A model generated the notes under the pieces. That model was given only the letters and a program-made list of their open reading frames with translations, ran no database searches and was not told the origin of the DNA. Shown here one piece after another: positions 18,530 through 35,386 of a stretch of DNA of 64,000 nt (position 1 is the first letter of the stretch; each line of letters opens with the position of its first letter). A program made the translations under genes and the position numbers. The stretch comes from Spirochaetia bacterium (GTDB lineage Bacteria > Spirochaetota > Spirochaetia > DSM-27196 > Salinispiraceae). The stretch lies in contig JBBRCZ010000005.1 in the NCBI GenBank assembly GCA_038204425.1, positions 32,001 through 96,000 on the forward strand. Direction: 5' to 3'.

Positions 18530-18895
18530 ATGAAGTTGCTAATCGTAGACGACTCCAACATCATGCGCCGGGCCATAGAAAAATATCTAACAGATTTTAA
18601 TCTCGAACTGGTAGGAACTGCCGGTGACGGCGAAGCAGCACTTCAACTCTTTAAGGCTCATCTTCCTGAATTGGTTACGCTTGATATCACCATGCCGCGC
18701 ATGGACGGCTTGGCTTGTCTTGATGAGATTATGCGTTTGCGCCCTGAAACTAAGGTCTTGGTAATTAGCGCTCTAAAGGACCCGTCTACTGGTCTTCAGG
18801 CTTTGCGCAAAGGTGCTAAAGGATTCTTGGCCAAGCCTTTTTCTCCAGAAGAAATACGTAGTGAAGTTCAGCAGATCCTTGGGCTATCATCATGA
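18530..18895 (+). CDS. Single-domain CheY-like response regulator
   Basis: LIVDDS, LDITMPRMDG phosphoacceptor, ISA, AKPF; 121 aa from ATG 18530. Confidence 0.92.
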   Translation: MKLLIVDDSNIMRRAIEKYLTDFNLELVGTAGDGEAALQLFKAHLPELVTLDITMPRMDGLACLDEIMRLRPETKVLVISALKDPSTGLQALRKGAKGFLAKPFSPEEIRSEVQQILGLSS

Positions 18896-19338
18896 CTGAA
18901 GTAGAACTAAAAGCATTTACTCGTGTTGTTACTCAATACTTTAACAACGTCACCGGTACAGCGGCTCAACTTGGGCTACCCTACATCAAAGGAGAACGCC
19001 AAGAAACCTTTGATTATACTGGCGTGATTGGCATTTCTGGCTCCCGCAAGGGTGGTGTTTATTACACCGCTGGCAAACAGCTTTTAGAAGCATTGGGCGC
19101 CTTTATCCTTGGGGATGAGCCACTCGATGATGAAGCGCTTTACGATTTGGTAGGCGAGCTTACCAACACTATTGCTGGCAACATGCGAGAGATTTTTGGC
19201 TCCAACTTTTTGATTTCGGTCCCAATCATCATGAAGGGTAAAATTGATGATATCGTTATCAAACTCAAACCACCAGTCTTTATAATTCCAATAATCTGGA
19301 ATGGCATGAACAGTCACCTAGCGATTGGCCTGGAGTAG
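18892..19338 (+). CDS. cheX: CheX phosphatase
   Basis: TGVIGISG..KG, GELTNTIAGN (ExxN motif), ISVP; ATGA overlap. Confidence 0.9.
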   Translation: MTEVELKAFTRVVTQYFNNVTGTAAQLGLPYIKGERQETFDYTGVIGISGSRKGGVYYTAGKQLLEALGAFILGDEPLDDEALYDLVGELTNTIAGNMREIFGSNFLISVPIIMKGKIDDIVIKLKPPVFIIPIIWNGMNSHLAIGLE

Positions 19339-19341
19339 AAC

Positions 19342-22080
19342 ATGGAACATTCAATGCTCGACATAATGTGGGTGATAATGGCTGCAAGCTTGGTTTTTGT
19401 TATGCAGGCCGGCTTTGCCATGGTAGAATCTGGCCTTACTCGCTCCAAAAATAGTATCAACGTAGCTATAAAGAATCTGACAGATCTTGGCGTCTCTTTG
19501 ATCGTATACTGGCTAGTGGGCTTTGGCCTCATGTTTGGACTGAGCTTTTCTGGCATTTTTGGCACTAGCGAGTTCTTCTTTGACAGCGGCGACGCCTGGC
19601 CAATGGTCTTTTGCCTTTTTCAGGCCGTGTTCTGCAGCACTGCTGCCACCATCGTGTCGGGCGCAGTGGCGGAGCGCATGCGCTATATTTCGTACATCTT
19701 TGCCACCATACTTATGGCGCTGGTGATCTACCCAGTATTTGGCCACTGGGCCTGGGGCGGCGCCTTGCAAGGGTCAGCAAGTGGTTGGCTGGCTAAGCTT
19801 GGCTTTGTTGACTTTGCAGGGTCTACCGTTGTGCACAGTGTGGGCGCTTGGGTAGCGCTGGCGATTCTAGTTATTATTGGACCTCGCGCCGGTCGCTACA
19901 AGAGCGATGGAACGGTTGCGCCCTTGAGCGGTAGTAACATCCCCATGGCAGTATTGGGAGTAATACTCTTGTGGTTTGGTTGGTTTGGCTTTAACGGCGG
20001 AAGCACTCTGGCAGCGAGTGAAAACGTAGCGGGGATAATCCTTCGCACTTGTTTGGCCGGTGCGGCTGGAATGCTATCTGCATTGCTAATCGGTTGGCCA
20101 CTACTCAAAAAACCCGACGTCAACTTAGTCATCAACGGCGCATTGGCTGGACTTGTTGCCATCACCGCTGGCTGCCACGCCGTCAGTGCGCCTCAGTCAA
20201 TCTTGATTGGTCTGGTTGCTGGCGTGCTGATGTTCGCAAGTAGCATTCTTCTCGACAAATTGCGCATAGATGATGCGGTTGGTGCAATTCCTGTGCACTT
20301 GGTAGCCGGCATCTGGGGTACCTTGGCGGTTGCAATTTTTGGCAATCCAGACATTTTAGGAACCGGCTTGAGCCCATTAGAACAGCTTGGTATACAGGGC
20401 TTAGGTATAACAGTTTGTGGTATGTGGTCGTTTGGCGTGGCTTGGTTAGTTGTAAAGCTTATCAATGCTATCACGCCAATTAGAGTAAGCCAAATAGACG
20501 AAGCCAATGGACTCAACAAAGCAGAACACGGAGTAAGCACCGAGATCTACGATCTATTCTCAGTATTGGATCAGCAAGCAAAAACGGGCGATTTGAGCCT
20601 ACGCGCGCCTGAAGAACCATTTACTGAGGCCGGACAAATTGCCGGGATGTACAACAACGTTATGAGCAAACTGGAAGCCGATACTATTGCCAAAGATGAA
20701 TACTTGCAGATACTGCACAATGTCAGTGACGGTCTTTTTTTGCTGGACCAAGATGGGGTTATTGGGCCGTATTACGCCGCTTCGCTCAACAAGATATTTG
20801 AAACAGATCAATTAGCAGGCCAAAAACTCAGCGCTGTTCTGGCACGTTTTGTGGCCGAAGAAACACGTGCAGTAGCCGAAGACTTTTTGCAGTCCTGCTT
20901 CGATTCAAGAATTGCTTGGCGTCATTTAGAAAAAATGAATCCATTGCTGGACGCCATGGCCTATTTTGACAACGGACAAGGTGATTTTTTGGAAAAAAAC
21001 TTGCAGTTTCTTTTTAGGCGCCTGGAAGACGGTAGTGTCGTTAAACGATTGTTAATTTTAGTACGTGACACAAGTGCCGAGAAAAATCTAAGCGAAGAGA
21101 TAGAAAAAACGCGCGAACTAGGCAAGCAGGAAATGGAAATGCTGTATCGCGTAATGCACGTTGAACCAAAGACTTTGCAAGAATTTCTTGACGGTCTACA
21201 TCGGGATCTTGAAGCTATAAATGGCCAGTTTAGGGCTGGAGAAGGCAATGTTCACGAAAGGCTCAGCCAGGTTTTTCGCTTAACACATGCCATAAAAGGT
21301 GACGCTGAGCTACTTCAACTTGATTTTATTGGTGGCAAAGCAGAAGAACTAGAGAATCGTGTGCGAGAACTTTTGAAGGTTTCTGAGCCCGGCGGAGAAG
21401 AATTTTTGGCACTGACCCTGCTGTATTCGGAACTTGCTTCGGCATCTACCAAACTGAGAGAACTTTTACAAAAATGGACTGGCTTCCAAGCGCAAACTCA
21501 GTCTATCGGATTTGATGGTTACTTGCGCCAATCTTTGGCCAGCATGGCCAGCCGTTTGGCAAGCCGCTACAACAAAGAGGTAAGTCTAGATGCAAGCGGC
21601 CTCAGTTTGCAGTTTTTGTCACCGCAACTGCGAAAGCCCATCAAAGATATCCTGGTGCAGTTTGTCAGAAACGCAGTGTTTCACGGTTTTGAGACGCCCG
21701 ATGTGCGTGGGAACCAAGGAAAGGCTAGCGCCGGCCTTATTCAAATTAGCGGGCTCCGCCAAGATAAAATGCTAGTTGTACGTTTTAGGGATGATGGCAA
21801 GGGACTTGACACGGGCGCACTACGACAAGAAGCGGTAAAAAGAGGCTTGATGGACAGTGCCAAAGCTAGTGCTATGAGTGAACGCGATGCACTGGGCTTA
21901 ATCTTTCAAAGTGGCTTTACCACGGTAGCGGTCGCAGATTCGGTGGCGGGCAAGGGTATAGGCATGTCACTGGTTCGCAGCTTGGTCAAGGAAACTGGTT
22001 CTAGCCTGAGTATGCGTACCAAAAAGGGTGCCTACACTGAGTTTGTTCTAAGTATTCCGTTGTCGGGAGCCAAGCAATGA
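19342..22080 (+). CDS. Ammonium transporter fused to HAMP, PAS, Hpt and CheA-type HATPase domains (no CheW domain)
   Basis: Amt: MQAGFAMVESG, FQAVF, GAVAER, DFAGSTVVH, GWFGFNGGS, DDAVGAIPVH. HAMP: GDLSLRAPEEPFTEAGQIAGMYNNVM. PAS: ILHNVSDGLFLLD. Hpt: FRLTHAIKGDA. HATPase: VRNAVFHG, DDGKG, IFQSGFTT, GKGIGMSLV. Confidence 0.92.
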   Translation: MEHSMLDIMWVIMAASLVFVMQAGFAMVESGLTRSKNSINVAIKNLTDLGVSLIVYWLVGFGLMFGLSFSGIFGTSEFFFDSGDAWPMVFCLFQAVFCSTAATIVSGAVAERMRYISYIFATILMALVIYPVFGHWAWGGALQGSASGWLAKLGFVDFAGSTVVHSVGAWVALAILVIIGPRAGRYKSDGTVAPLSGSNIPMAVLGVILLWFGWFGFNGGSTLAASENVAGIILRTCLAGAAGMLSALLIGWPLLKKPDVNLVINGALAGLVAITAGCHAVSAPQSILIGLVAGVLMFASSILLDKLRIDDAVGAIPVHLVAGIWGTLAVAIFGNPDILGTGLSPLEQLGIQGLGITVCGMWSFGVAWLVVKLINAITPIRVSQIDEANGLNKAEHGVSTEIYDLFSVLDQQAKTGDLSLRAPEEPFTEAGQIAGMYNNVMSKLEADTIAKDEYLQILHNVSDGLFLLDQDGVIGPYYAASLNKIFETDQLAGQKLSAVLARFVAEETRAVAEDFLQSCFDSRIAWRHLEKMNPLLDAMAYFDNGQGDFLEKNLQFLFRRLEDGSVVKRLLILVRDTSAEKNLSEEIEKTRELGKQEMEMLYRVMHVEPKTLQEFLDGLHRDLEAINGQFRAGEGNVHERLSQVFRLTHAIKGDAELLQLDFIGGKAEELENRVRELLKVSEPGGEEFLALTLLYSELASASTKLRELLQKWTGFQAQTQSIGFDGYLRQSLASMASRLASRYNKEVSLDASGLSLQFLSPQLRKPIKDILVQFVRNAVFHGFETPDVRGNQGKASAGLIQISGLRQDKMLVVRFRDDGKGLDTGALRQEAVKRGLMDSAKASAMSERDALGLIFQSGFTTVAVADSVAGKGIGMSLVRSLVKETGSSLSMRTKKGAYTEFVLSIPLSGAKQ

Positions 22081-23171
22081 ATAACCCTGACGGTCCAGTC
22101 TGCAATCACGAGCGCTGCAAGCTCAACCAGTTTTTTCACCACTCTCGAGAAGCCATGTTCATAACCGAGCGGGATGGCAGCTTTGTAGATGTCAACCCGG
22201 CTTTTGAGGATTTACTTGGTTACTCGCGTAGCCATCTTTTGACCAGTCAAGTCAGCTTGGTGCTAGCAAACGAAGATGATAGAGTCGACTATCAACGCAG
22301 CATCGAAACCGATGGTGTGGTACATGACTACCCAATAGCCCTGCGACACCAAGATGGCACACTCTTGTTTGGCATGATTGACGCCATTGTATGGCGCTCC
22401 AATGGACGAATAGCTGGCTACCACGGCATAATCCGCACACGCGCTGCACTTATGGAGTCGTTTCGCAGCTATCTCAACCGACTCAAAGCTGAGAAACATC
22501 AAGTGAGGCAAGAGCGCCGCAATCTCATTTCTGATACGCAAATGCTGACCCGCTATTTGACTGATGACTTGATTGAATACATCAAAAAAACTGGCCGCAA
22601 TCCACTAGAAACCAGCCAACAAAGGGTGAGCGTCTTGTTCTTTGACATTCGCAACTCAACCGGAATTGCCGAAAAGCTTAGCCCGGATCAGTTTGCTTCT
22701 TTTTTGAGTGACATCCTGACCGACATTATGGATCTAATTTACGGCTGCCAAGGCTCGGTTAATAAAATACTGGGCGACGGCATTATGGCTACCTTTGGTG
22801 TGCCACTCTCTACAGGTACCGACTCTTTTCATGCTGTTGAGGCGGCTTTGCACATTCGGGACTACCTCAAGACTTTTAACGATGTTAGGCCCGATTTTCT
22901 CATACAACCAGTTGCTGCCGGCATTGGCATTGCAACCGGAACGGTCTTCGCCGGTGTTATTGGATCGGTTAGACGGCAAGAATACACCGTACTTGGTGAC
23001 GCAGTAAATATCGCTAGTCGATTGGAGTCTCTCACCAAACAAGCAGGAGAAACTATACTACTCGACGAAACCACTTTTCAAGAGGTGCGCGAAACCTATG
23101 CCTGTCGCCCGGTTCTGGAAGGTCGCCTGCGGGGTCGAGAAGAAGAAGTGCGTATTTACGGCATAAGATAG
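22077..23171 (+). CDS. Soluble PAS-domain class III adenylyl cyclase
   Basis: PAS (VNPAFEDLLGY), coiled coil, FFDIRNST, NKILGDG, EYTVLGDAVNIASRLE (Lys/Thr specificity pair); ATGA overlap with the Amt kinase. Confidence 0.9.
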   Translation: MNNPDGPVCNHERCKLNQFFHHSREAMFITERDGSFVDVNPAFEDLLGYSRSHLLTSQVSLVLANEDDRVDYQRSIETDGVVHDYPIALRHQDGTLLFGMIDAIVWRSNGRIAGYHGIIRTRAALMESFRSYLNRLKAEKHQVRQERRNLISDTQMLTRYLTDDLIEYIKKTGRNPLETSQQRVSVLFFDIRNSTGIAEKLSPDQFASFLSDILTDIMDLIYGCQGSVNKILGDGIMATFGVPLSTGTDSFHAVEAALHIRDYLKTFNDVRPDFLIQPVAAGIGIATGTVFAGVIGSVRRQEYTVLGDAVNIASRLESLTKQAGETILLDETTFQEVRETYACRPVLEGRLRGREEEVRIYGIR

Positions 23172-23261: not shown

Positions 23262-24563
23262 ATGATCAAGCGAAGCAGACTCTCCATATATACGTTTATT
23301 GCGGTATTTAGTTCTATCTTAATCGTTGGCACGCTTGCGATGCCTTTGGCCTTGGATAGTATTCAAAAAAACTACATTTCCATCCAAGCAGACGTTAACG
23401 CCCGTCAAGCAAAAGCTATGGCTCAGTTTATTCGCTCACGCGTGGCTCAAGGCGTAAGTCGTGAGCAGGTGATCGAGGACTTCCAAGCAAGCATCCAAGG
23501 CAGTGCCACCGAACGTGGTTATGTCTGCATTGTGGACCGCATAAGCACCAATTTTTTGTGTCATCCCATGACTTCGATGCTTGGCCAATCGGTGGCGGTT
23601 AAAAAAGCGGTCTTTGACCGTAGTTTTAACCGCAATCAATTTGAACCTTGGGAACAAGCTATCACGAACCCGCAAAGTGGGAGCGGACTTTTGGCTTTTG
23701 ACAACTTTAAGGCCGAGGAAGTTGTCCACTCAGAAGTTATTGAAGAACTTGGTTGGGTTGTAAATTCTCATGAGAACACAGAACGAGTCCAAACCGAAAT
23801 AGCAAACATCCGCACCTATGTTGTCATCGGCGCTGCTATTTTTGCTTTTCTTTTGGCGTTTCCAATTTCGTTTGCTGTGCGATCGGTTAGCCGCAGATAC
23901 GAAAGACAAATCGAACATAGCAACATGCTGATTGCTGCAGAACAAGAAAAAGCTGACAACTTGCTGCTTAACATCTTACCTTCTTCTATTGCTCGTCGTA
24001 TGAAAGACGGCCAAAAAATTATCGTCAATCACTTTGAAAAAGTAGGCATCCTGTTTTGTGACATAGTCAACTTTACGCGATTTTCTGCGCGCACTACGCC
24101 AGACAACGTGGTTCGTTTGCTCAATCGCATTTTTTCTGACTTTGACGCCCTGTGCAACAAATATGGCATAGAAAAAATAAAGACTATCGGCGACGCCTAC
24201 ATGGCAGTTGGCGGACTACCGCTCGCGAGTGACAGGCCCTTGCAAAGACTGGCCGACCTTGCTTTGGAAATGCTTACAGTTGTTGAGAAGCTCGACCTAA
24301 ACGTGCAAGTGCGTATCGGTTTGCACGTTGGAGATGTAGTTGCAGGAGTAATTGGTACCAACAAGTTTAGCTACGACCTTTGGGGCGACGCGGTCAATGT
24401 TGCATCAAGACTAGAATCCAGCGGTCAAAAAGGCCGAGTGCACGTTAGTCAAGAAGTCAAAGATGTACTTGGAGACGCGTATAGCTTTGTAGACAATGGC
24501 TTAGTTGCGCTCAAGGGTAAAGGCAAACTCCAAACCTGGTTTTTAGAAAAGAAACCAGTTTAA
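23262..24563 (+). CDS. Membrane class III adenylyl cyclase with periplasmic Cache-like domain
   Basis: 2 TM segments around an extracytoplasmic domain (GYVCIVD..FLCHP); LLLNILP, FCDIVNFT, IKTIGDAYM, YDLWGDAVNVASRLES (Lys/Asp pair). Confidence 0.9.
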   Translation: MIKRSRLSIYTFIAVFSSILIVGTLAMPLALDSIQKNYISIQADVNARQAKAMAQFIRSRVAQGVSREQVIEDFQASIQGSATERGYVCIVDRISTNFLCHPMTSMLGQSVAVKKAVFDRSFNRNQFEPWEQAITNPQSGSGLLAFDNFKAEEVVHSEVIEELGWVVNSHENTERVQTEIANIRTYVVIGAAIFAFLLAFPISFAVRSVSRRYERQIEHSNMLIAAEQEKADNLLLNILPSSIARRMKDGQKIIVNHFEKVGILFCDIVNFTRFSARTTPDNVVRLLNRIFSDFDALCNKYGIEKIKTIGDAYMAVGGLPLASDRPLQRLADLALEMLTVVEKLDLNVQVRIGLHVGDVVAGVIGTNKFSYDLWGDAVNVASRLESSGQKGRVHVSQEVKDVLGDAYSFVDNGLVALKGKGKLQTWFLEKKPV

Positions 24564-30666: not shown

Positions 30667-32187
30667 TTACAAGAGCCCGCGTTTAAAGACAATAAAGACT
30701 GTCATAGTGATGGGCAGCAGTATTAACATAAAGAGCTCGCGGTTGAGGTTGGCAAATAGCAAACGTCTGTCAAAGTTATGTAAGAAGCTGAGTTTGGGCC
30801 AAAGGTAGCGGCCCACCAAAATTGCAGCTGCTATGACCAGCAAATCTATTGCAAGGTCCAGCAGGGATAGGCCAGGATTTGCAAGCAGTGAGTGACCAAA
30901 AAGCATCAGATAGAGCGCGCCAAAGACAAGCACCGCCAAGACTGGCCAGAATCGCTTGCCCAAAGCTTTACGCAGTCCGAGTCTATGTTTGGCAAATGCT
31001 GCCACAACAAAGAACGACATACCGAACAATAAGACCTTGTAGACGGACTGACCAGACAAAAAGGCCTGTTTTAAAAAATAAACTGGGCTTGCAAAAAGCC
31101 CAGCCATTGAAAAAATAGCCAAACCTATAATTGGAAGACTGAGTCTGCGCACAAGATAGCGTCCTCCGCGCTGAGAAAGGTCTTCATAACTATAGAACAT
31201 AATACTCTTGTGAAGTGCGTGTATTGGCATATACAAAAATGCAAGATCGTAGTTTTTAAACGAACACATTAAGCCAACCAAACCTACCGTCACCAAGGTG
31301 TTGTGTGCAATAGTTCGTTTTAGGTCGGTTTCAAAAAACATACACAGCGCACCGACAATCATAGTTGCCAACGAGAGATACCTTAGCAGTTCAAAAAATT
31401 CCATCATACCAGCTCGCTCGGCCGGTACTAAGACAAATATATAGAAACCTCTTATGCCGGAAAAAACAGTGAATGAAGCTAGGAAAGACGAAACCAAAGA
31501 ATTGGTCGCCCCATGACAGCTGGCCACCCACCCGGACGCTGGAAAGAGTGCTGCTTTGATCGCAAATGCAATGGCGCACAAAAGCAATCCGAGATCTAAC
31601 CATGGTCGCGCAATTATCTCATGACTTGGATCATAACCAAAACCCATTCCAGCGCCGCCCGCATAGAGCACAATTATGCCAGCCAAGAAGAACAACGAAC
31701 TTATCCCGCCAGTTAGCATGTATTTGATAGAAGCGCCGTAGTTTCCTTTTAGGCCAATTAAGACGTAGGCAGCCATAATCATCAGCTCGTAAAAGACAAA
31801 AAAATTAAAGATGTCTCCAGTAACCAAAAGTCCGATACTACCAGCCAAGAAGAAAAGAAATACCAGCCTAACATTGATTGAGTCCAAACTCTTTAATCGG
31901 AACAAGGCGAAAGCCATAGGAATAAAGAGATTGGCCATAAAAAAAATCTTTTCTTGGCTAAAGTGAAACTGGATGGAAAACGGAAGAGCACTGAGTGCAA
32001 CCAGATAGTTGCCTTCAATTGGCCGAGTAAGAAAGTAAATTACGACAAACGAAACTATTTCTAATATCAAAACCAAGGCCACAACAAATGCCGAGCAGTC
32101 TCGCCGCAAAAGAAAACTGACGCTCAAAATCACCAAGACTCCCAATAAGGGAAAAAAGGCAACTAGCATCCACAAGGCGTCAAACAT
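30667..32187 (-). CDS. Antiporter-like proton-conducting subunit (MrpD/MbhH-like), divergent
   Basis: TGDIFNFFVFYELM, ASIKY, AIKAALFP..W, ETDLKR, HALHKS. Confidence 0.85.
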   Translation of the reverse strand: MFDALWMLVAFFPLLGVLVILSVSFLLRRDCSAFVVALVLILEIVSFVVIYFLTRPIEGNYLVALSALPFSIQFHFSQEKIFFMANLFIPMAFALFRLKSLDSINVRLVFLFFLAGSIGLLVTGDIFNFFVFYELMIMAAYVLIGLKGNYGASIKYMLTGGISSLFFLAGIIVLYAGGAGMGFGYDPSHEIIARPWLDLGLLLCAIAFAIKAALFPASGWVASCHGATNSLVSSFLASFTVFSGIRGFYIFVLVPAERAGMMEFFELLRYLSLATMIVGALCMFFETDLKRTIAHNTLVTVGLVGLMCSFKNYDLAFLYMPIHALHKSIMFYSYEDLSQRGGRYLVRRLSLPIIGLAIFSMAGLFASPVYFLKQAFLSGQSVYKVLLFGMSFFVVAAFAKHRLGLRKALGKRFWPVLAVLVFGALYLMLFGHSLLANPGLSLLDLAIDLLVIAAAILVGRYLWPKLSFLHNFDRRLLFANLNRELFMLILLPITMTVFIVFKRGLL

Positions 32188-32497
32188 TGCCAAGCTCCGA
32201 GACCAAGACAGTCCCTGTCTGACGATAGAGCCTGACTATGACCGCGCATGCCAAGGCATTAAAACACATTCCGATAACAATTGCCGTCAACATGAGGGCT
32301 TGCGGTACAGGATCTACAACAACACGCTGGCTAACATTGAGTATGGGAGCTGCGCCACTGGCAACAAATCCAATCTTTAAAAACTCAAGGATTAACATGC
32401 TTTCTACTATCGAAAGGCACATTACTTTTTTGATCAAATTGTCCACCACAATCAAGCCCCAAACAGCCACAAACAAAAGCCACAGATCAAGATTCAT
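32180..32497 (-). CDS. MrpC/MnhC subunit
   Basis: NLIKKVMCL, VDPVPQALMLTAIVIG; ATGA overlap. Confidence 0.9.
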   Translation of the reverse strand: MNLDLWLLFVAVWGLIVVDNLIKKVMCLSIVESMLILEFLKIGFVASGAAPILNVSQRVVVDPVPQALMLTAIVIGMCFNALACAVIVRLYRQTGTVLVSELGNV

Positions 32498-33213
32498 GTG
32501 CACTTCCCAAGATGCTTCATACCCACTACGGTTAAGACTACAACCATTGCTTCCATCATGGTGTCAAAAACCCTTGGTCCTAGATAAACAAGCGTTACCA
32601 CATTGTTTATTCCCACATGCTGAGCAAGATCGAGCCAAGCTTGCTTATCAGCTCGAACACTAACCTGGCCTGGACTCAAGAAGTAGACAATGAGCATTAT
32701 TGCAAGCAAAAGTAAGCCCAAAACGATGCCGGTAACGCAGCGCTCAATACGACGCCAAGATAAGTTATTTTTTGCCAGAACTATTGGATTAAGTTTCGGG
32801 GCTTGATCCCAAAACAAGAAATTTCTAAAAATTAGCACCATCGACCCCGAGACTTCAAGAAAAATCGCCAGAGAAAGAATAGGAAAAACCGCGTTTGACC
32901 AAATTAGACCTTCAAGTCTCAACTGATAAAGGCCGCCAAACGGTCTTCCTGCAAAAACAAAACCTGCTATTGCTAGAGCAAACAAGACAACAATTCCGCT
33001 CAGTTCTATCTTTTGAAAAACCATGTCCGAGTACATACGGCGCTCCATAACCAACTCCACCACTACCATAATCGATCCAAGCATAACGCCAGCCTGAAAA
33101 CCACCACCGGGAAACGACGCACCATAGGACGCCACATACAGAGAAAAAACTACCGCAAAGGGAAATATCTTGCCCAAAGTAGTCGTAAAAATTGGCGATT
33201 CTCTCAAGTTCAC
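32494..33213 (-). CDS. MrpB/MnhB-domain protein with an MbhE-like segment at its C-terminus
   Basis: PGGGFQAG in the N-terminal half; GINNVVTLVYLGPRVFDTMME at the C-terminus; GTG 33213 overlaps the upstream stop. Confidence 0.8.
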   Translation of the reverse strand: MNLRESPIFTTTLGKIFPFAVVFSLYVASYGASFPGGGFQAGVMLGSIMVVVELVMERRMYSDMVFQKIELSGIVVLFALAIAGFVFAGRPFGGLYQLRLEGLIWSNAVFPILSLAIFLEVSGSMVLIFRNFLFWDQAPKLNPIVLAKNNLSWRRIERCVTGIVLGLLLLAIMLIVYFLSPGQVSVRADKQAWLDLAQHVGINNVVTLVYLGPRVFDTMMEAMVVVLTVVGMKHLGKCT

Positions 33214-33551
33214 AAACTGTCTCCGTTGCTTCCATCGTAGATTTGACAAGGAAGCGTCATTAGACAAGCTTTTTCTGGGTTGGAAAAATCGATGCCTTCT
33301 TTCTGACAAATATGGAGAAATACTTTGATGTCGCGCGCATCGCCGACCGGAATAAACAACGTTCGATTGTAGCTGTACTCTTTCCCAAACAGCGACTTAA
33401 ATGATGCAAACAGGGGCAGTCCTTCGTCGCTAAGGCTTTCTATGCTCTCGCCGTCTAGTACCGAACTATCAAAAAGACCAACTTCCAGGAGGATGGACGA
33501 AATTCTATCAAGCAAACTTTCATCCTTTAAAATAATAATCATTAGCTTCAT
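33210..33551 (-). CDS. Small P-II-like protein
   Basis: 113 aa; MKLMIIIL..ILLEVG..SSVLDGE..PLFASF..YNRTLF pattern suggests a GlnB-like fold. Confidence 0.55.
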   Translation of the reverse strand: MKLMIIILKDESLLDRISSILLEVGLFDSSVLDGESIESLSDEGLPLFASFKSLFGKEYSYNRTLFIPVGDARDIKVFLHICQKEGIDFSNPEKACLMTLPCQIYDGSNGDSL

Positions 33552-33554
33552 GGT

Positions 33555-34040
33555 TTAGGCACTCTCAAAGGCGCTAATATAGTCGATTATGATTTTTGCG
33601 CATTCGTTGCTTTCACCAGCTACAAGCCTATCACGAGCCTCTTGAAAAACTTCTACGGCATCTTCTTGGTTGAGCAAGCGCCCAAGCCGCGCCAAAAGAC
33701 TCAAGTACATTCTACTTTTTGCGTTCGGGAGGATGATACAAAACAGCGCTTGCACCAAATCACCTTTTATCAAATGGATTGCTTTTGGTAAAAGACCCAA
33801 ACTCATTGTGATGTCTGACGCCTCGTCACTGCGAGCATGCACCAGCGCAAAACCCTTGCCAAGATTGATGTCCTGGGGTGCATTGGTGCGGCTTGACGCT
33901 TTGATACTTTGCAAAACATTGAGTTCCAGCTTGGCATTTCCGGCGCACAAACTAACTGCCTGCTTTAGTATTGATTCGTAGCCACTAGCATCCAATAGAA
34001 TAACTCGATCTGGCTTTAAGTAGTCCAAGAGATCAACCAT
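33555..34040 (-). CDS. Stand-alone PTS EIIA (Fru/Mtl/Ntr-type) domain protein
   Basis: LGKGFALVHAR (GxGxAxPH-like His), YLSLLARLGRLL; GGGGAGG RBS. Confidence 0.8.
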   Translation of the reverse strand: MVDLLDYLKPDRVILLDASGYESILKQAVSLCAGNAKLELNVLQSIKASSRTNAPQDINLGKGFALVHARSDEASDITMSLGLLPKAIHLIKGDLVQALFCIILPNAKSRMYLSLLARLGRLLNQEDAVEVFQEARDRLVAGESNECAKIIIDYISAFESA

Positions 34041-34344
34041 GGTCCCTCCCCTTATCTTTTTGTGTATCGCCGCTTTTTTTGTCTTGGTCCTTTTCGGCAG
34101 CAGCATGACCATGGGTAAACTTAATTGCCGTCAAAAACACTAGGCTCGACAAGCCAGCACCAAGTGCTGCTTCAGTTATCGCTATGTCTGGAGCTGAGAG
34201 CAAAAGATAACGCACGGTCATTATCATACCAAAGGCACTCAGCCACATTAATGACCGCAACAATTGCTTGCAAGCCAGAACACCACAAATACAAGCGCCC
34301 GTGAATATCGTCATCAGGACATCAAACACTATCATCGTTATCAT
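34033..34344 (-). CDS. DUF4040 / MbhD-like small subunit
   Basis: LLLSAPDIAITEAALGAGLS motif. Confidence 0.88.
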   Translation of the reverse strand: MITMIVFDVLMTIFTGACICGVLACKQLLRSLMWLSAFGMIMTVRYLLLSAPDIAITEAALGAGLSSLVFLTAIKFTHGHAAAEKDQDKKSGDTQKDKGRDHG

Positions 34345-34633
34345 CTCGCACTCTTTCGTCCATGCGTGAGACTGCCAGGACGTGGGCAACAATCGGAGCG
34401 GTAAAAACCAAAAAAATTACGATCACGACAAACTTCAAAGAAAAGTCAGTCTGCCGTGCGCCAAGGGCCAAACCAATAATGATCGAAATAGAACCCGAAA
34501 CACCGCATTTGGTCGCGGCATGAAACCTTTGAAACAAGTCTGGCAAAATTATGCTGCCGAGACTTCCAAAAAACACAAGAACAAGGCCGCTAATCAGAAA
34601 GAAGCCTTCTAATATTTGCAGTAAAATAGTCAT
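34322..34633 (-). CDS. MrpG/MnhG subunit
   Basis: LPDLFQRFHAATK, TAPIVAHVLA. Confidence 0.88.
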   Translation of the reverse strand: MTILLQILEGFFLISGLVLVFFGSLGSIILPDLFQRFHAATKCGVSGSISIIIGLALGARQTDFSLKFVVIVIFLVFTAPIVAHVLAVSRMDERVRDDNDDSV

Positions 34634-34893
34634 TCTTTTACTCGATCTTGCATGAGTTTGCGAATACGTACAAACGCGACAATTTCGCCAAAGGCCAACA
34701 AAGCATAGACCATTGCAATATCGAGGTAATAACTGGCATTTTCGATCACCGCAAGCGTGCATAAGATTAAGACAATACCAGACGACACCAACGACAAAGC
34801 CATTAAACGATCCTGAAAACTCGGCCCCCTCAGCAAGCGAAAACTAGACATCAAAGTTATTAACCCAAGCACAACCAAAAAAAAATGCATCAT
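34630..34893 (-). CDS. MrpF/MnhF subunit
   Basis: RLLRGPSFQDRLMAL, YLDIAMVYALLAF. Confidence 0.9.
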   Translation of the reverse strand: MMHFFLVVLGLITLMSSFRLLRGPSFQDRLMALSLVSSGIVLILCTLAVIENASYYLDIAMVYALLAFGEIVAFVRIRKLMQDRVKE

Positions 34894-34897
34894 TCTG

Positions 34898-35386
34898 CTA
34901 TCCCAAGACCCGCAGAATCACCGACTCAATCGTGTCTTTGATTTGCCGCCCAGCCTCAACACTGTGGCGAGACTTGAGATCAAAACAATGTACATAAAGA
35001 TAACGACCACTTAACCAAAGCGTTATGGTTCCAGGCACCAAGGTGATACTGTTAGCAAGCATTATTCGCCCCATCGGTGACCTAATTCGCGTCTTGATAC
35101 GCACTACTCCTGATTTGTACTTGCCACCTAACATTCGCCAAATCAAAGAAAAACTTGCTTGGTAGTTTTGGACAATCAAGAGAATAAAATAGATAACAAT
35201 CAAGTCAATCCGGTACAATAGACGACCATGCTTAAGCGTGTTACCTTCCCAAAAAATTCGCCAAGAGAATATGCTTACCAATGCACTGAGCACCACACCC
35301 CAAAGTAGGGAAGTCAAGATCAACTCTTGTGAAAACAAGAGCCATGCCAAAAACAATGCGAACCACAAGCTCAAAAAACGCGCCAT
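34898..35386 (-). CDS. MrpE/MnhE subunit
   Basis: LANSITLVPGTIT, LYVH. Confidence 0.9.
   Translation of the reverse strand: MARFLSLWFALFLAWLLFSQELILTSLLWGVVLSALVSIFSWRIFWEGNTLKHGRLLYRIDLIVIYFILLIVQNYQASFSLIWRMLGGKYKSGVVRIKTRIRSPMGRIMLANSITLVPGTITLWLSGRYLYVHCFDLKSRHSVEAGRQIKDTIESVILRVLG

What the first reader, a model, noticed from the sequence alone, without database searches (positions are those of the whole stretch)
18530..22080. Ammonium transporter fused to a CheW-less CheA-type kinase, with its own CheY and CheX: candidate ammonium-sensing pathway
Seen: one 912-aa ORF with a complete Amt domain keeping the twin His (VVH, PVH), Phe gate (FQAVF, WFGF), Trp/Ser site and DFAG Asp. It continues through HAMP, PAS, Hpt (HAIKG) and CheA-like N/G1/F/G2 boxes and ends with no CheW domain. 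It is coupled to a single-domain receiver and CheX (ATGA overlap, 3-bp gap). No glnK, MCP, cheW, cheR or cheB is nearby. Known: sensor-Hpt-HATPase with receiver and CheX defines class III histidine kinase systems; characterised Amt sensors include Ks-Amt5 (classical HK) and Sd-Amt1 (diguanylate cyclase). I know of no characterised Amt-class III kinase. Inference: ammonium sensed or transported by Amt sets CheY phosphorylation without chemoreceptors.
Basis: partly seen in the sequence, partly recalled or inferred. Interest (0 to 1): 0.92.

Follow-up and report, generated by a model that had tools for sequence, protein, structure and literature searches.

The report
Ammonium receptor fused to mini-CheA kinase
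A conserved spirochaete operon joins an ammonium-channel-like membrane sensor directly to a stripped-down chemotaxis-type kinase with its own CheY-like switch and CheX reset enzyme, probably reporting outside ammonium to a target other than the flagellar motor; none of this has been tested in the lab.

Summary
The finding is real, not a chimera. cheY (18530-18895), cheX (18892-19338) and a 912-aa Amt-HAMP-like-PAS-Hpt-CheA-type ATPase (19342-22080) are followed, with an ATGA overlap, by an intact PAS-adenylate cyclase (22077-23171).

The fusion occurs in 19 of 400 other genomes of the phylum. cheY+cheX flank 33 of 34 assessable kinase loci but 0 of 10 kinase-less relatives. The Amt keeps the ammonium-binding ligands of the receptor Sd-Amt1, though glnK-linked stand-alone Amts do too. 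The kinase has class III architecture, but pilT was found in 0 of 20 genomes.

The CheY differs from chemotactic CheY at three FliM-contact positions (the Lys119 equivalent is Glu in 36/40, Arg in 20/20 controls), which argues against motor control. The next gene is often a cyclase (9 of 15 catalytically dead) or a CBS-SpoIIE phosphatase.

Best reading: an ammonium-receptor kinase with a dedicated, probably non-motor, phospho-CheY output. Ammonium control and the target are inferred. I found no paper on it, but two key papers were unavailable. The scan noted this system before on other genomes (e1-1246477, e1-6373157). New variant of known kinds; interest 0.62.

The parts
18530..18895 (+). Single-domain CheY-like receiver, 121 aa (D7, D8, D52, S80, F99, K102; G88, A101 and E112 at FliM-contact positions)
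   Evidence: homologues begin at this ATG
18892..19338 (+). CheX phosphatase, 148 aa, E89-x-x-N92
   Evidence: ExxN in 35 of 35 CheX hits from related loci; the motif's catalytic role is recalled
19342..22080 (+). 912-aa Amt-HAMP-like-PAS-Hpt-CheA-type ATPase sensor kinase
19342..20535 (+). Amt domain (aa 1-398) with pore residues and N1/N2 site equivalents Q22, E29, K44, N45, D48, T103, S106, Y118, plus F25 and N265
20542..20682 (+). HAMP-like helix-connector-helix (aa 401-447)
   Evidence: model secondary structure; alignment to the Sd-Amt1 linker; no Pfam or fold hit of its own
20704..21069 (+). PAS domain (about aa 455-576), part of the shared kinase core
   Evidence: fold searches; profile hits covering PAS plus Hpt without Amt
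21166..21486 (+). Hpt bundle with the phospho-acceptor candidate His649 (codon 21286-21288)
   Evidence: H649, K652 and G653 in 66 of 66 fusion sequences
21541..22065 (+). CheA P4-type ATPase domain; the protein ends 4 residues later, so there is no CheW domain
22077..23171 (+). PAS-class III adenylate cyclase, 364 aa, full catalytic set D190, K230, D234, T304, N311, R315; accessory fourth gene
   Evidence: residue roles are recalled

Best explanation
An ammonium-receptor two-component system built on a class III-type kinase. NH4+ passes the Amt selectivity path into an N1/N2-type pocket (inferred from Sd-Amt1 and Ks-Amt5). The change passes through the HAMP-like helices, which may supply the dimer contact that the missing P3 domain cannot, and through the PAS domain to the CheA-type ATPase. 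The ATPase phosphorylates His649 of the Hpt bundle, the phosphate moves to Asp52 of the operon's own CheY, and CheX removes it. With no methylation enzymes, the output would track absolute ammonium rather than gradients. CheY-P most likely acts on a target other than the FliM peptide (about 65%). The leading candidate is the co-encoded enzyme: here a PAS-adenylate cyclase, so cAMP; elsewhere a dead cyclase or a CBS-SpoIIE phosphatase (about 35-40%). Shown: architecture, residues, conservation, gene linkage. Inferred: ligand, phosphotransfer, direction of regulation, target.
For: The closest solved structures are the receptors Sd-Amt1 and Ks-Amt5. E29, K44, D48, T103, S106, Y118 and N265 are present in 66 of 66 fusion sequences, Q22 and N45 in 58 of 66. 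The Amt domain groups with other signal-fused Amts (34 rows, support 100), apart from the 3 glnK-linked Amts tested. The genome has two separate amt-glnK pairs for uptake. Kinase residues are near-invariant. cheY+cheX lie upstream in 33 of 34 assessable kinase loci and 0 of 10 kinase-less Amt-HAMP-PAS loci; the 9 kinase-less proteins placed in the tree fall in two groups, one sister to a full-length kinase. At the E. coli I95, V108 and K119 equivalents (FliM contacts), 40 Amt-linked CheYs have G/A/S 40/40, Val 0/40 (Pro 17) and Glu 36/40, against V, V, R in 20 of 20 chemotactic CheYs. The next gene is a cyclase in 15 and SpoIIE in 7 of 26 assessable named loci.
Against: The N1/N2 set is not diagnostic: the genome's glnK-linked C4 Amt matches even the strict published pattern, while this protein and 65 of 66 fusions do not, and the paper notes transporters in the same cluster. 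The fourth gene is accessory: absent in 8 of 17 assessable handle loci, including both same-family complete genomes. In G171 the closest cyclase relative lies on another contig. 9 of the 15 neighbouring cyclases lack catalytic residues, so cAMP cannot be the universal output. Many receiver-cyclases of this subfamily stand alone. FliM with its N-terminal peptide is present in 20 of 20 genomes. Thermotoga CheY has Ala at the K119 position, so a basic residue there is not universal. Kin share gene order, so the counts are not independent.
Confidence: 0.6

Rival explanations
1. Same ammonium-receptor kinase, but CheY-P acts on the flagellar switch, giving array-free, non-adapting ammonium chemokinesis beside the normal Che system.
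For: The receiver's best structural relatives are chemotaxis CheYs and it groups near canonical CheY in the tree. CheX gives fast reset. FliM is present in 20 of 20 genomes. There is no DNA-binding regulator in the operon, and the three-gene core often stands without a fourth gene.
Against: Three FliM-contact positions differ consistently from chemotactic CheY, one by charge reversal. This genome has FliM and two CheW-bearing CheAs, and 5 of 5 further genomes tested have CheW-domain genes. No adaptation enzymes lie nearby.
Confidence: 0.25
2. A transceptor: the Amt still conducts ammonium, and the kinase reads flux or an internal cue through the PAS domain.
For: All pore residues are intact. 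N1/N2-positive transporters exist. glnK-linked Amts share the signature and N265. Ten relatives keep Amt-HAMP-PAS after losing the kinase.
Against: Both characterised N1/N2 fusions bind rather than transport. Two amt-glnK pairs exist in this genome. The PAS is common to the kinase core whatever the input, so it looks like a transmitter.
Confidence: 0.12
3. Assembly chimera, or chance neighbours with no shared function.
For: The genome appears to be a metagenome assembly (the stretch is held by metagenome runs), and no single contig of the runs laid spans the whole 5 kb.
Against: Dozens of full-length homologues with the same gene order, and two runs bridge the junction.
Confidence: 0.01

Closest known systems
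Sd-Amt1 of Shewanella denitrificans (Amt-HAMP-GGDEF ammonium receptor; PDB 8QJ3/8QJ4/8QPF; PMC11152129)
   Same: 47% identical Amt domain, TM-score 0.95 to the target, N1/N2 ligands, F25 and N269 equivalents, alignment continues into the HAMP linker
   Different: The output is a PAS-Hpt-CheA-type kinase with CheY/CheX, not a diguanylate cyclase; L49 and a 53-residue spacing miss the strict signature
Ks-Amt5 of Ca. Kuenenia stuttgartiensis (Amt-DHp-CA kinase; PDB 6EU6; PMC5764959)
   Same: Amt fused to a histidine kinase; 44% identity in the structural alignment
   Different: Ks-Amt5 has a classical DHp kinase, no HAMP or PAS, and no identified regulator; here the His lies on an Hpt bundle and the regulator and phosphatase are co-encoded
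Class III histidine kinases (Adebali et al. 2017, J Bacteriol 199:e00218-17; not held, known from two citing passages and recall)
   Same: Sensor-Hpt-CheA-type ATPase, no dimerisation or CheW domain, single-domain receiver and CheX; the ATPase groups with other such kinases apart from CheA
   Different: The input is an 11-helix, presumably trimeric Amt; pilT in 0 of 20 genomes; no soluble chemoreceptor nearby; frequent cyclase or SpoIIE partner
CheA-CheY3-CheX chemotaxis core of spirochaetes
   Same: P4-type ATPase (30% to the genome's own CheA), Hpt His, CheY and CheX families
   Different: No P2, P3 or P5 (His to N-box 127 residues against 390-464 in six CheAs); no MCP, CheW, CheR or CheB; altered FliM face

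Membership tests
Ammonium receptors (AmR) | N1/N2 ligands Q22, E29, N45, D48, T104, S107 with K44 and Y119 | tested here: met
   all present; also present in glnK-linked stand-alone Amts, so not specific
Ammonium receptors (AmR) | Strict published pattern QX6EX15NX2D[F/T]X54-60TX2[S/T] | tested here: not met
   L49 (not a listed ligand in Sd-Amt1) and a spacing of 53; 1 of 66 fusions match, 58 of 66 match a relaxed form. Filed as AmR-like
Ammonium receptors (AmR) | Phe25 in place of Tyr, and Asn269 narrowing the exit | tested here: met
   F25 in 65 of 66 (1 gap), N265 in 66 of 66
Ammonium receptors (AmR) | NH4+ binding without transport, and NH4+-modulated output | not testable with these tools
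   needs SSM electrophysiology and kinase assays
Class III histidine kinases | Own sensory domain in front of Hpt and a CheA-type ATPase, with no CheW domain (recalled) | tested here: met
Class III histidine kinases | No dimerisation domain (passage in PMC6963811) | tested here: met
   no H-kinase_dim hit; 127 residues from His to N-box; Hpt helix runs into the ATPase in the model
Class III histidine kinases | Single-domain receiver and CheX in the operon (recalled) | tested here: met
   33 of 34 assessable loci
Class III histidine kinases | Genome carries pilT (passage in PMC6501615); a genomic correlate behind the proposed pilus function | tested here: not met
   TIGR01420 over its cut-off in 0 of 19 genomes and not in G000 (95.6% complete); the controls ring in 5 of 14. 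Filed as class III-type by architecture only
Class III histidine kinases | Unorthodox soluble chemoreceptor nearby (recalled; optional) | tested here: not met
   no MCP domain among 63 window ORFs; related loci were not scanned for it
CheA | CheW (P5) and dimerisation (P3) domains (PMC10542144) | tested here: not met
Motor-binding CheY | FliM-contact residues equivalent to I95, V108, K119 | tested here: not met
   G88, A101, E112; Thermotoga CheY also lacks the basic residue, so this is suggestive only
Class III adenylate cyclase (fourth gene) | Two metal Asp, Lys and Thr for adenine, catalytic Asn and Arg (recalled) | tested here: met
   D190, D234, K230, T304, N311, R315

The most novel reading that the evidence does not exclude
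A spirochaete ammonium-signalling pathway in which a trimeric Amt receptor drives a kinase with no dimerisation domain, and a CheY that has left the motor docks on a cyclase fold (active, or retained as a pseudo-enzyme) or on a PP2C phosphatase. This would give class III kinases a first defined ligand and a first output, neither tied to pili.
Probability: 0.3. Interest if true: 0.82.

Novelty: new variant of a known kind. Interest (0 to 1): 0.62.

Why it matters
By my recall, class III kinases have no demonstrated ligand or output, and Ks-Amt5 was described with its regulator still unidentified. Here a strongly predicted ligand, the kinase, its receiver, its phosphatase and a candidate effector sit in one short operon, so both open questions can be tested in vitro. 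It also asks how a trimeric receptor activates a kinase without a dimerisation domain, and its occurrence without pilT challenges the pilus-control proposal for this kinase class.

Tried and rejected
Viral contigs: no relative among 3 pattern matches. Literature: no paper on this architecture in searches, nor in 2 Sd-Amt1 supplementary files for Hpt, HATPase, CheA, Spirochaeta or Treponema. Figure 7B of that paper is an image I could not see. Adebali 2017 was not held and Tremblay and Hallenbeck 2009 was not seen; either may list this architecture. The complex prediction (CheY with the cyclase dimer) was not available, so there is no verdict on binding. No RNA holder was listed. The promoter and terminator scan was at chance level. 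The HAMP region got no fold match of its own because PAS filled the list: inconclusive. Nitrogenase link: only weak partial NifH-family hits in G000, best E 4e-8. The idea that the cyclase subfamily is exclusive to these kinases was rejected: of 20 further cyclase loci fetched, none had a class III-type kinase match and one lay near a CheA-like gene. The second cyclase gene (23262-24563) is not counted as part of the system, since no full-length relative appeared in the loci. Corrections: the gate Phe was first mis-picked as F215 and is F217; the label noCheYX on L012 is wrong; the length count (14 of 31) came from a faulty pattern, and one search shows all 31 ORFs at 687 aa or more.
Full report
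Observation. A fourth gene, a PAS-adenylate cyclase at 22077-23171, overlaps the kinase stop by ATGA. The window is G000:C5:32001-96000; named homologues are Treponema, Spirochaetales and Spirochaetia. A model from 64 sequences (mean pLDDT 87) shows Amt, a helix-connector-helix, a PAS-like sheet, an Hpt bundle and an ATPase domain. A second model confirms PAS. HAMP is supported only by secondary structure and by alignment to the Sd-Amt1 linker. The fusion is genuine: 53 other listed proteins carry Amt, Hpt and HATPase (120 of 166 hits listed), and contigs from runs X2 and X3 bridge the junction.

Distribution. A phylum sample gave 32 of 401 genomes, G000 included, with a match at E 1e-40 or better. 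I fetched 20 loci for the longer matches; 19 loci, from 19 genomes, hold the Amt fusion. All 18 with upstream DNA have cheX and cheY (17 by script, L011). The 16 shorter matches fetched are the same kinase core with other inputs. Of these, 49 match through the PAS region (47 named as spirochaetes, 2 unnamed); 31 from other phyla match only the Amt-linker junction, and the 9 of them scanned end in kinase, GGDEF/EAL, MCP or PAS modules. Of the 49, 38 have the kinase half, 1 is cut by a contig end, and 10 are kinase-less; cheY+cheX lie upstream in 33 of 34 assessable kinase loci and 0 of 10 kinase-less loci. The handle set and the named set overlap, so their counts must not be added. One cluster with an extra PAS has a member labelled Bacteroidota, so the design may not be confined to spirochaetes.

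Input side. Sd-Amt1 and Ks-Amt5 are the nearest solved structures. The N1/N2 ligands described for Sd-Amt1 are all present and mostly invariant over 66 fusion sequences. Against over-reading: the strict published pattern fails here, the genome's glnK-linked C4 Amt passes it, and two other glnK-linked Amts carry the same residues. Better support for sensing is indirect. The domain sits in a clade of signal-fused Amts (those rows were selected through the junction, so this is partly circular), and uptake is covered by two amt-glnK pairs.

Kinase. H649, N777 and the G2 glycines are invariant in 66 of 66 sequences, D818 in 65. The ATPase is CheA P4-like but groups with other sensor-Hpt-ATPase kinases, apart from CheAs (support 99, FastTree). 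His to N-box is 127 residues against 390-464 in six CheAs (one further CheA gave a spurious 217 from a second pattern match). The PAS-Hpt core is a large family: 818 clusters at E 1e-30 or better, with PilJ, Cache, CHASE4, GAF, 7TM and propeller inputs among the 28 scanned. Amt-HAMP is therefore one swappable input. The genome has two more CheW-less kinases of this build with CheX. pilT, said to accompany class III kinases, is over its cut-off in 0 of 20 genomes, whereas FliM is in 20 of 20.

Output. The 40 Amt-linked CheYs aligned differ from 20 chemotactic CheYs, chosen by an adjacent chemotaxis-type cheX, at FliM-contact positions taken from two papers. The I95 equivalent is G/A/S in 40/40 against V in 20/20; V108 is never V (Pro in 17) against V in 20/20; K119 is E in 36/40 against R in 20/20. 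The mapping uses a constant offset of 7 from E. coli numbering. Thermotoga CheY has Ala at the last position, so this is a hint, not proof. The next gene in 26 assessable named loci is a cyclase in 15, a CBS-SpoIIE in 7 and neither in 4; in 17 handle loci it is 5, 4 and 8. Six of the 15 cyclases are intact (PAS or receiver N-terminus); nine have lost the first Asp and catalytic Asn/Arg yet keep a TxN(D/E)VR loop. Fourth-gene type largely follows kinase clades, so these are few independent events. A dead cyclase fold kept beside the kinase suggests a protein-contact role, but this is inference and could not be modelled.

Mechanism and odds. Ammonium-sensing kinase with dedicated CheY and CheX: about 85%. 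Output not through the FliM peptide: about 65%; through the co-encoded cyclase or phosphatase: 35-40%; motor: about 25%. Dimerisation of two of three HAMP domains is borrowed from the Sd-Amt1 model and is untested here.

Literature seen. PMC11152129: parts 1-5 of 11 and a term search of 2 supplements. PMC5764959, PMC10542144, PMC6501615, PMC12918730, PMC8396549, PMC6963811, PMC6600141, PMC3774744 and 10.1101/781468: passages only. Adebali 2017: not seen; recalled, plus two citing passages. Tremblay and Hallenbeck 2009: reference line only. Searches found no description of this architecture, but the library lacks most subscription papers.

Verdict. A real, conserved and apparently undescribed joining of two known modules: AmR-like input and class III-type kinase. 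The scan noted it on two other genomes. The comparative results obtained here are the co-loss of cheY/cheX with the kinase, the absence of pilT, the altered FliM face and the dead cyclases. New variant of a known kind; interest 0.62.

Noticed in passing
L125, L128, L130, L131, L136-L141: Amt-HAMP-PAS proteins of about 584-656 aa with no output domain and no cheY/cheX, apparently from two separate kinase losses (L140 is split); two lie beside amt-glnK genes.
   Followed up: partly
L116, L118, L119, L120, L121; P0047, P0048, P0051, P0053, P0054, P0056, P0058: A clade with Q22R and N45V in the ammonium pocket; its four loci with downstream DNA all carry a dead cyclase. Possible change of ligand or loss of sensing.
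   Followed up: partly
L105, L106, L111, L112, L116, L118, L119, L121, L126: Pseudo-adenylate cyclases, mostly with two PAS domains, forming one clade (97/96) directly behind the kinase.
   Followed up: partly
L037:5108-9807 and L038:5419-7693 (own genome): Two further CheW-less Hpt-ATPase kinases with CheY and CheX; the first has a MASE6-like input and a HAMP-adenylate cyclase upstream.
   Followed up: partly
L021, L022, L026, L029, L030, L031, L032, L036: 8 of 16 non-Amt class III-type kinase loci also have an adenylate cyclase nearby, often with a receiver domain.
   Followed up: partly
P0247: 4858-aa protein with HAMP, 19 Hpt stretches and one terminal ATPase, sharing the PAS-Hpt core.
   Followed up: no
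L087:3461-8445: Five receiver genes in a row followed by a cyclase of the same subfamily.
   Followed up: no
window:23262-24563: A second, more distant class III cyclase with an N-terminal membrane and sensor region, 90 bp downstream; not seen in related loci.
   Followed up: partly
window:15819-18308 and 30667-35386: CPA2 antiporter with USP and EIIA-like domains just upstream, and a split Mrp-type Na+/H+ antiporter cluster that includes an EIIA-like gene.
   Followed up: no
L099:3196-4722: The one kinase locus without cheY/cheX has a sigma-54 response regulator upstream instead.
   Followed up: no
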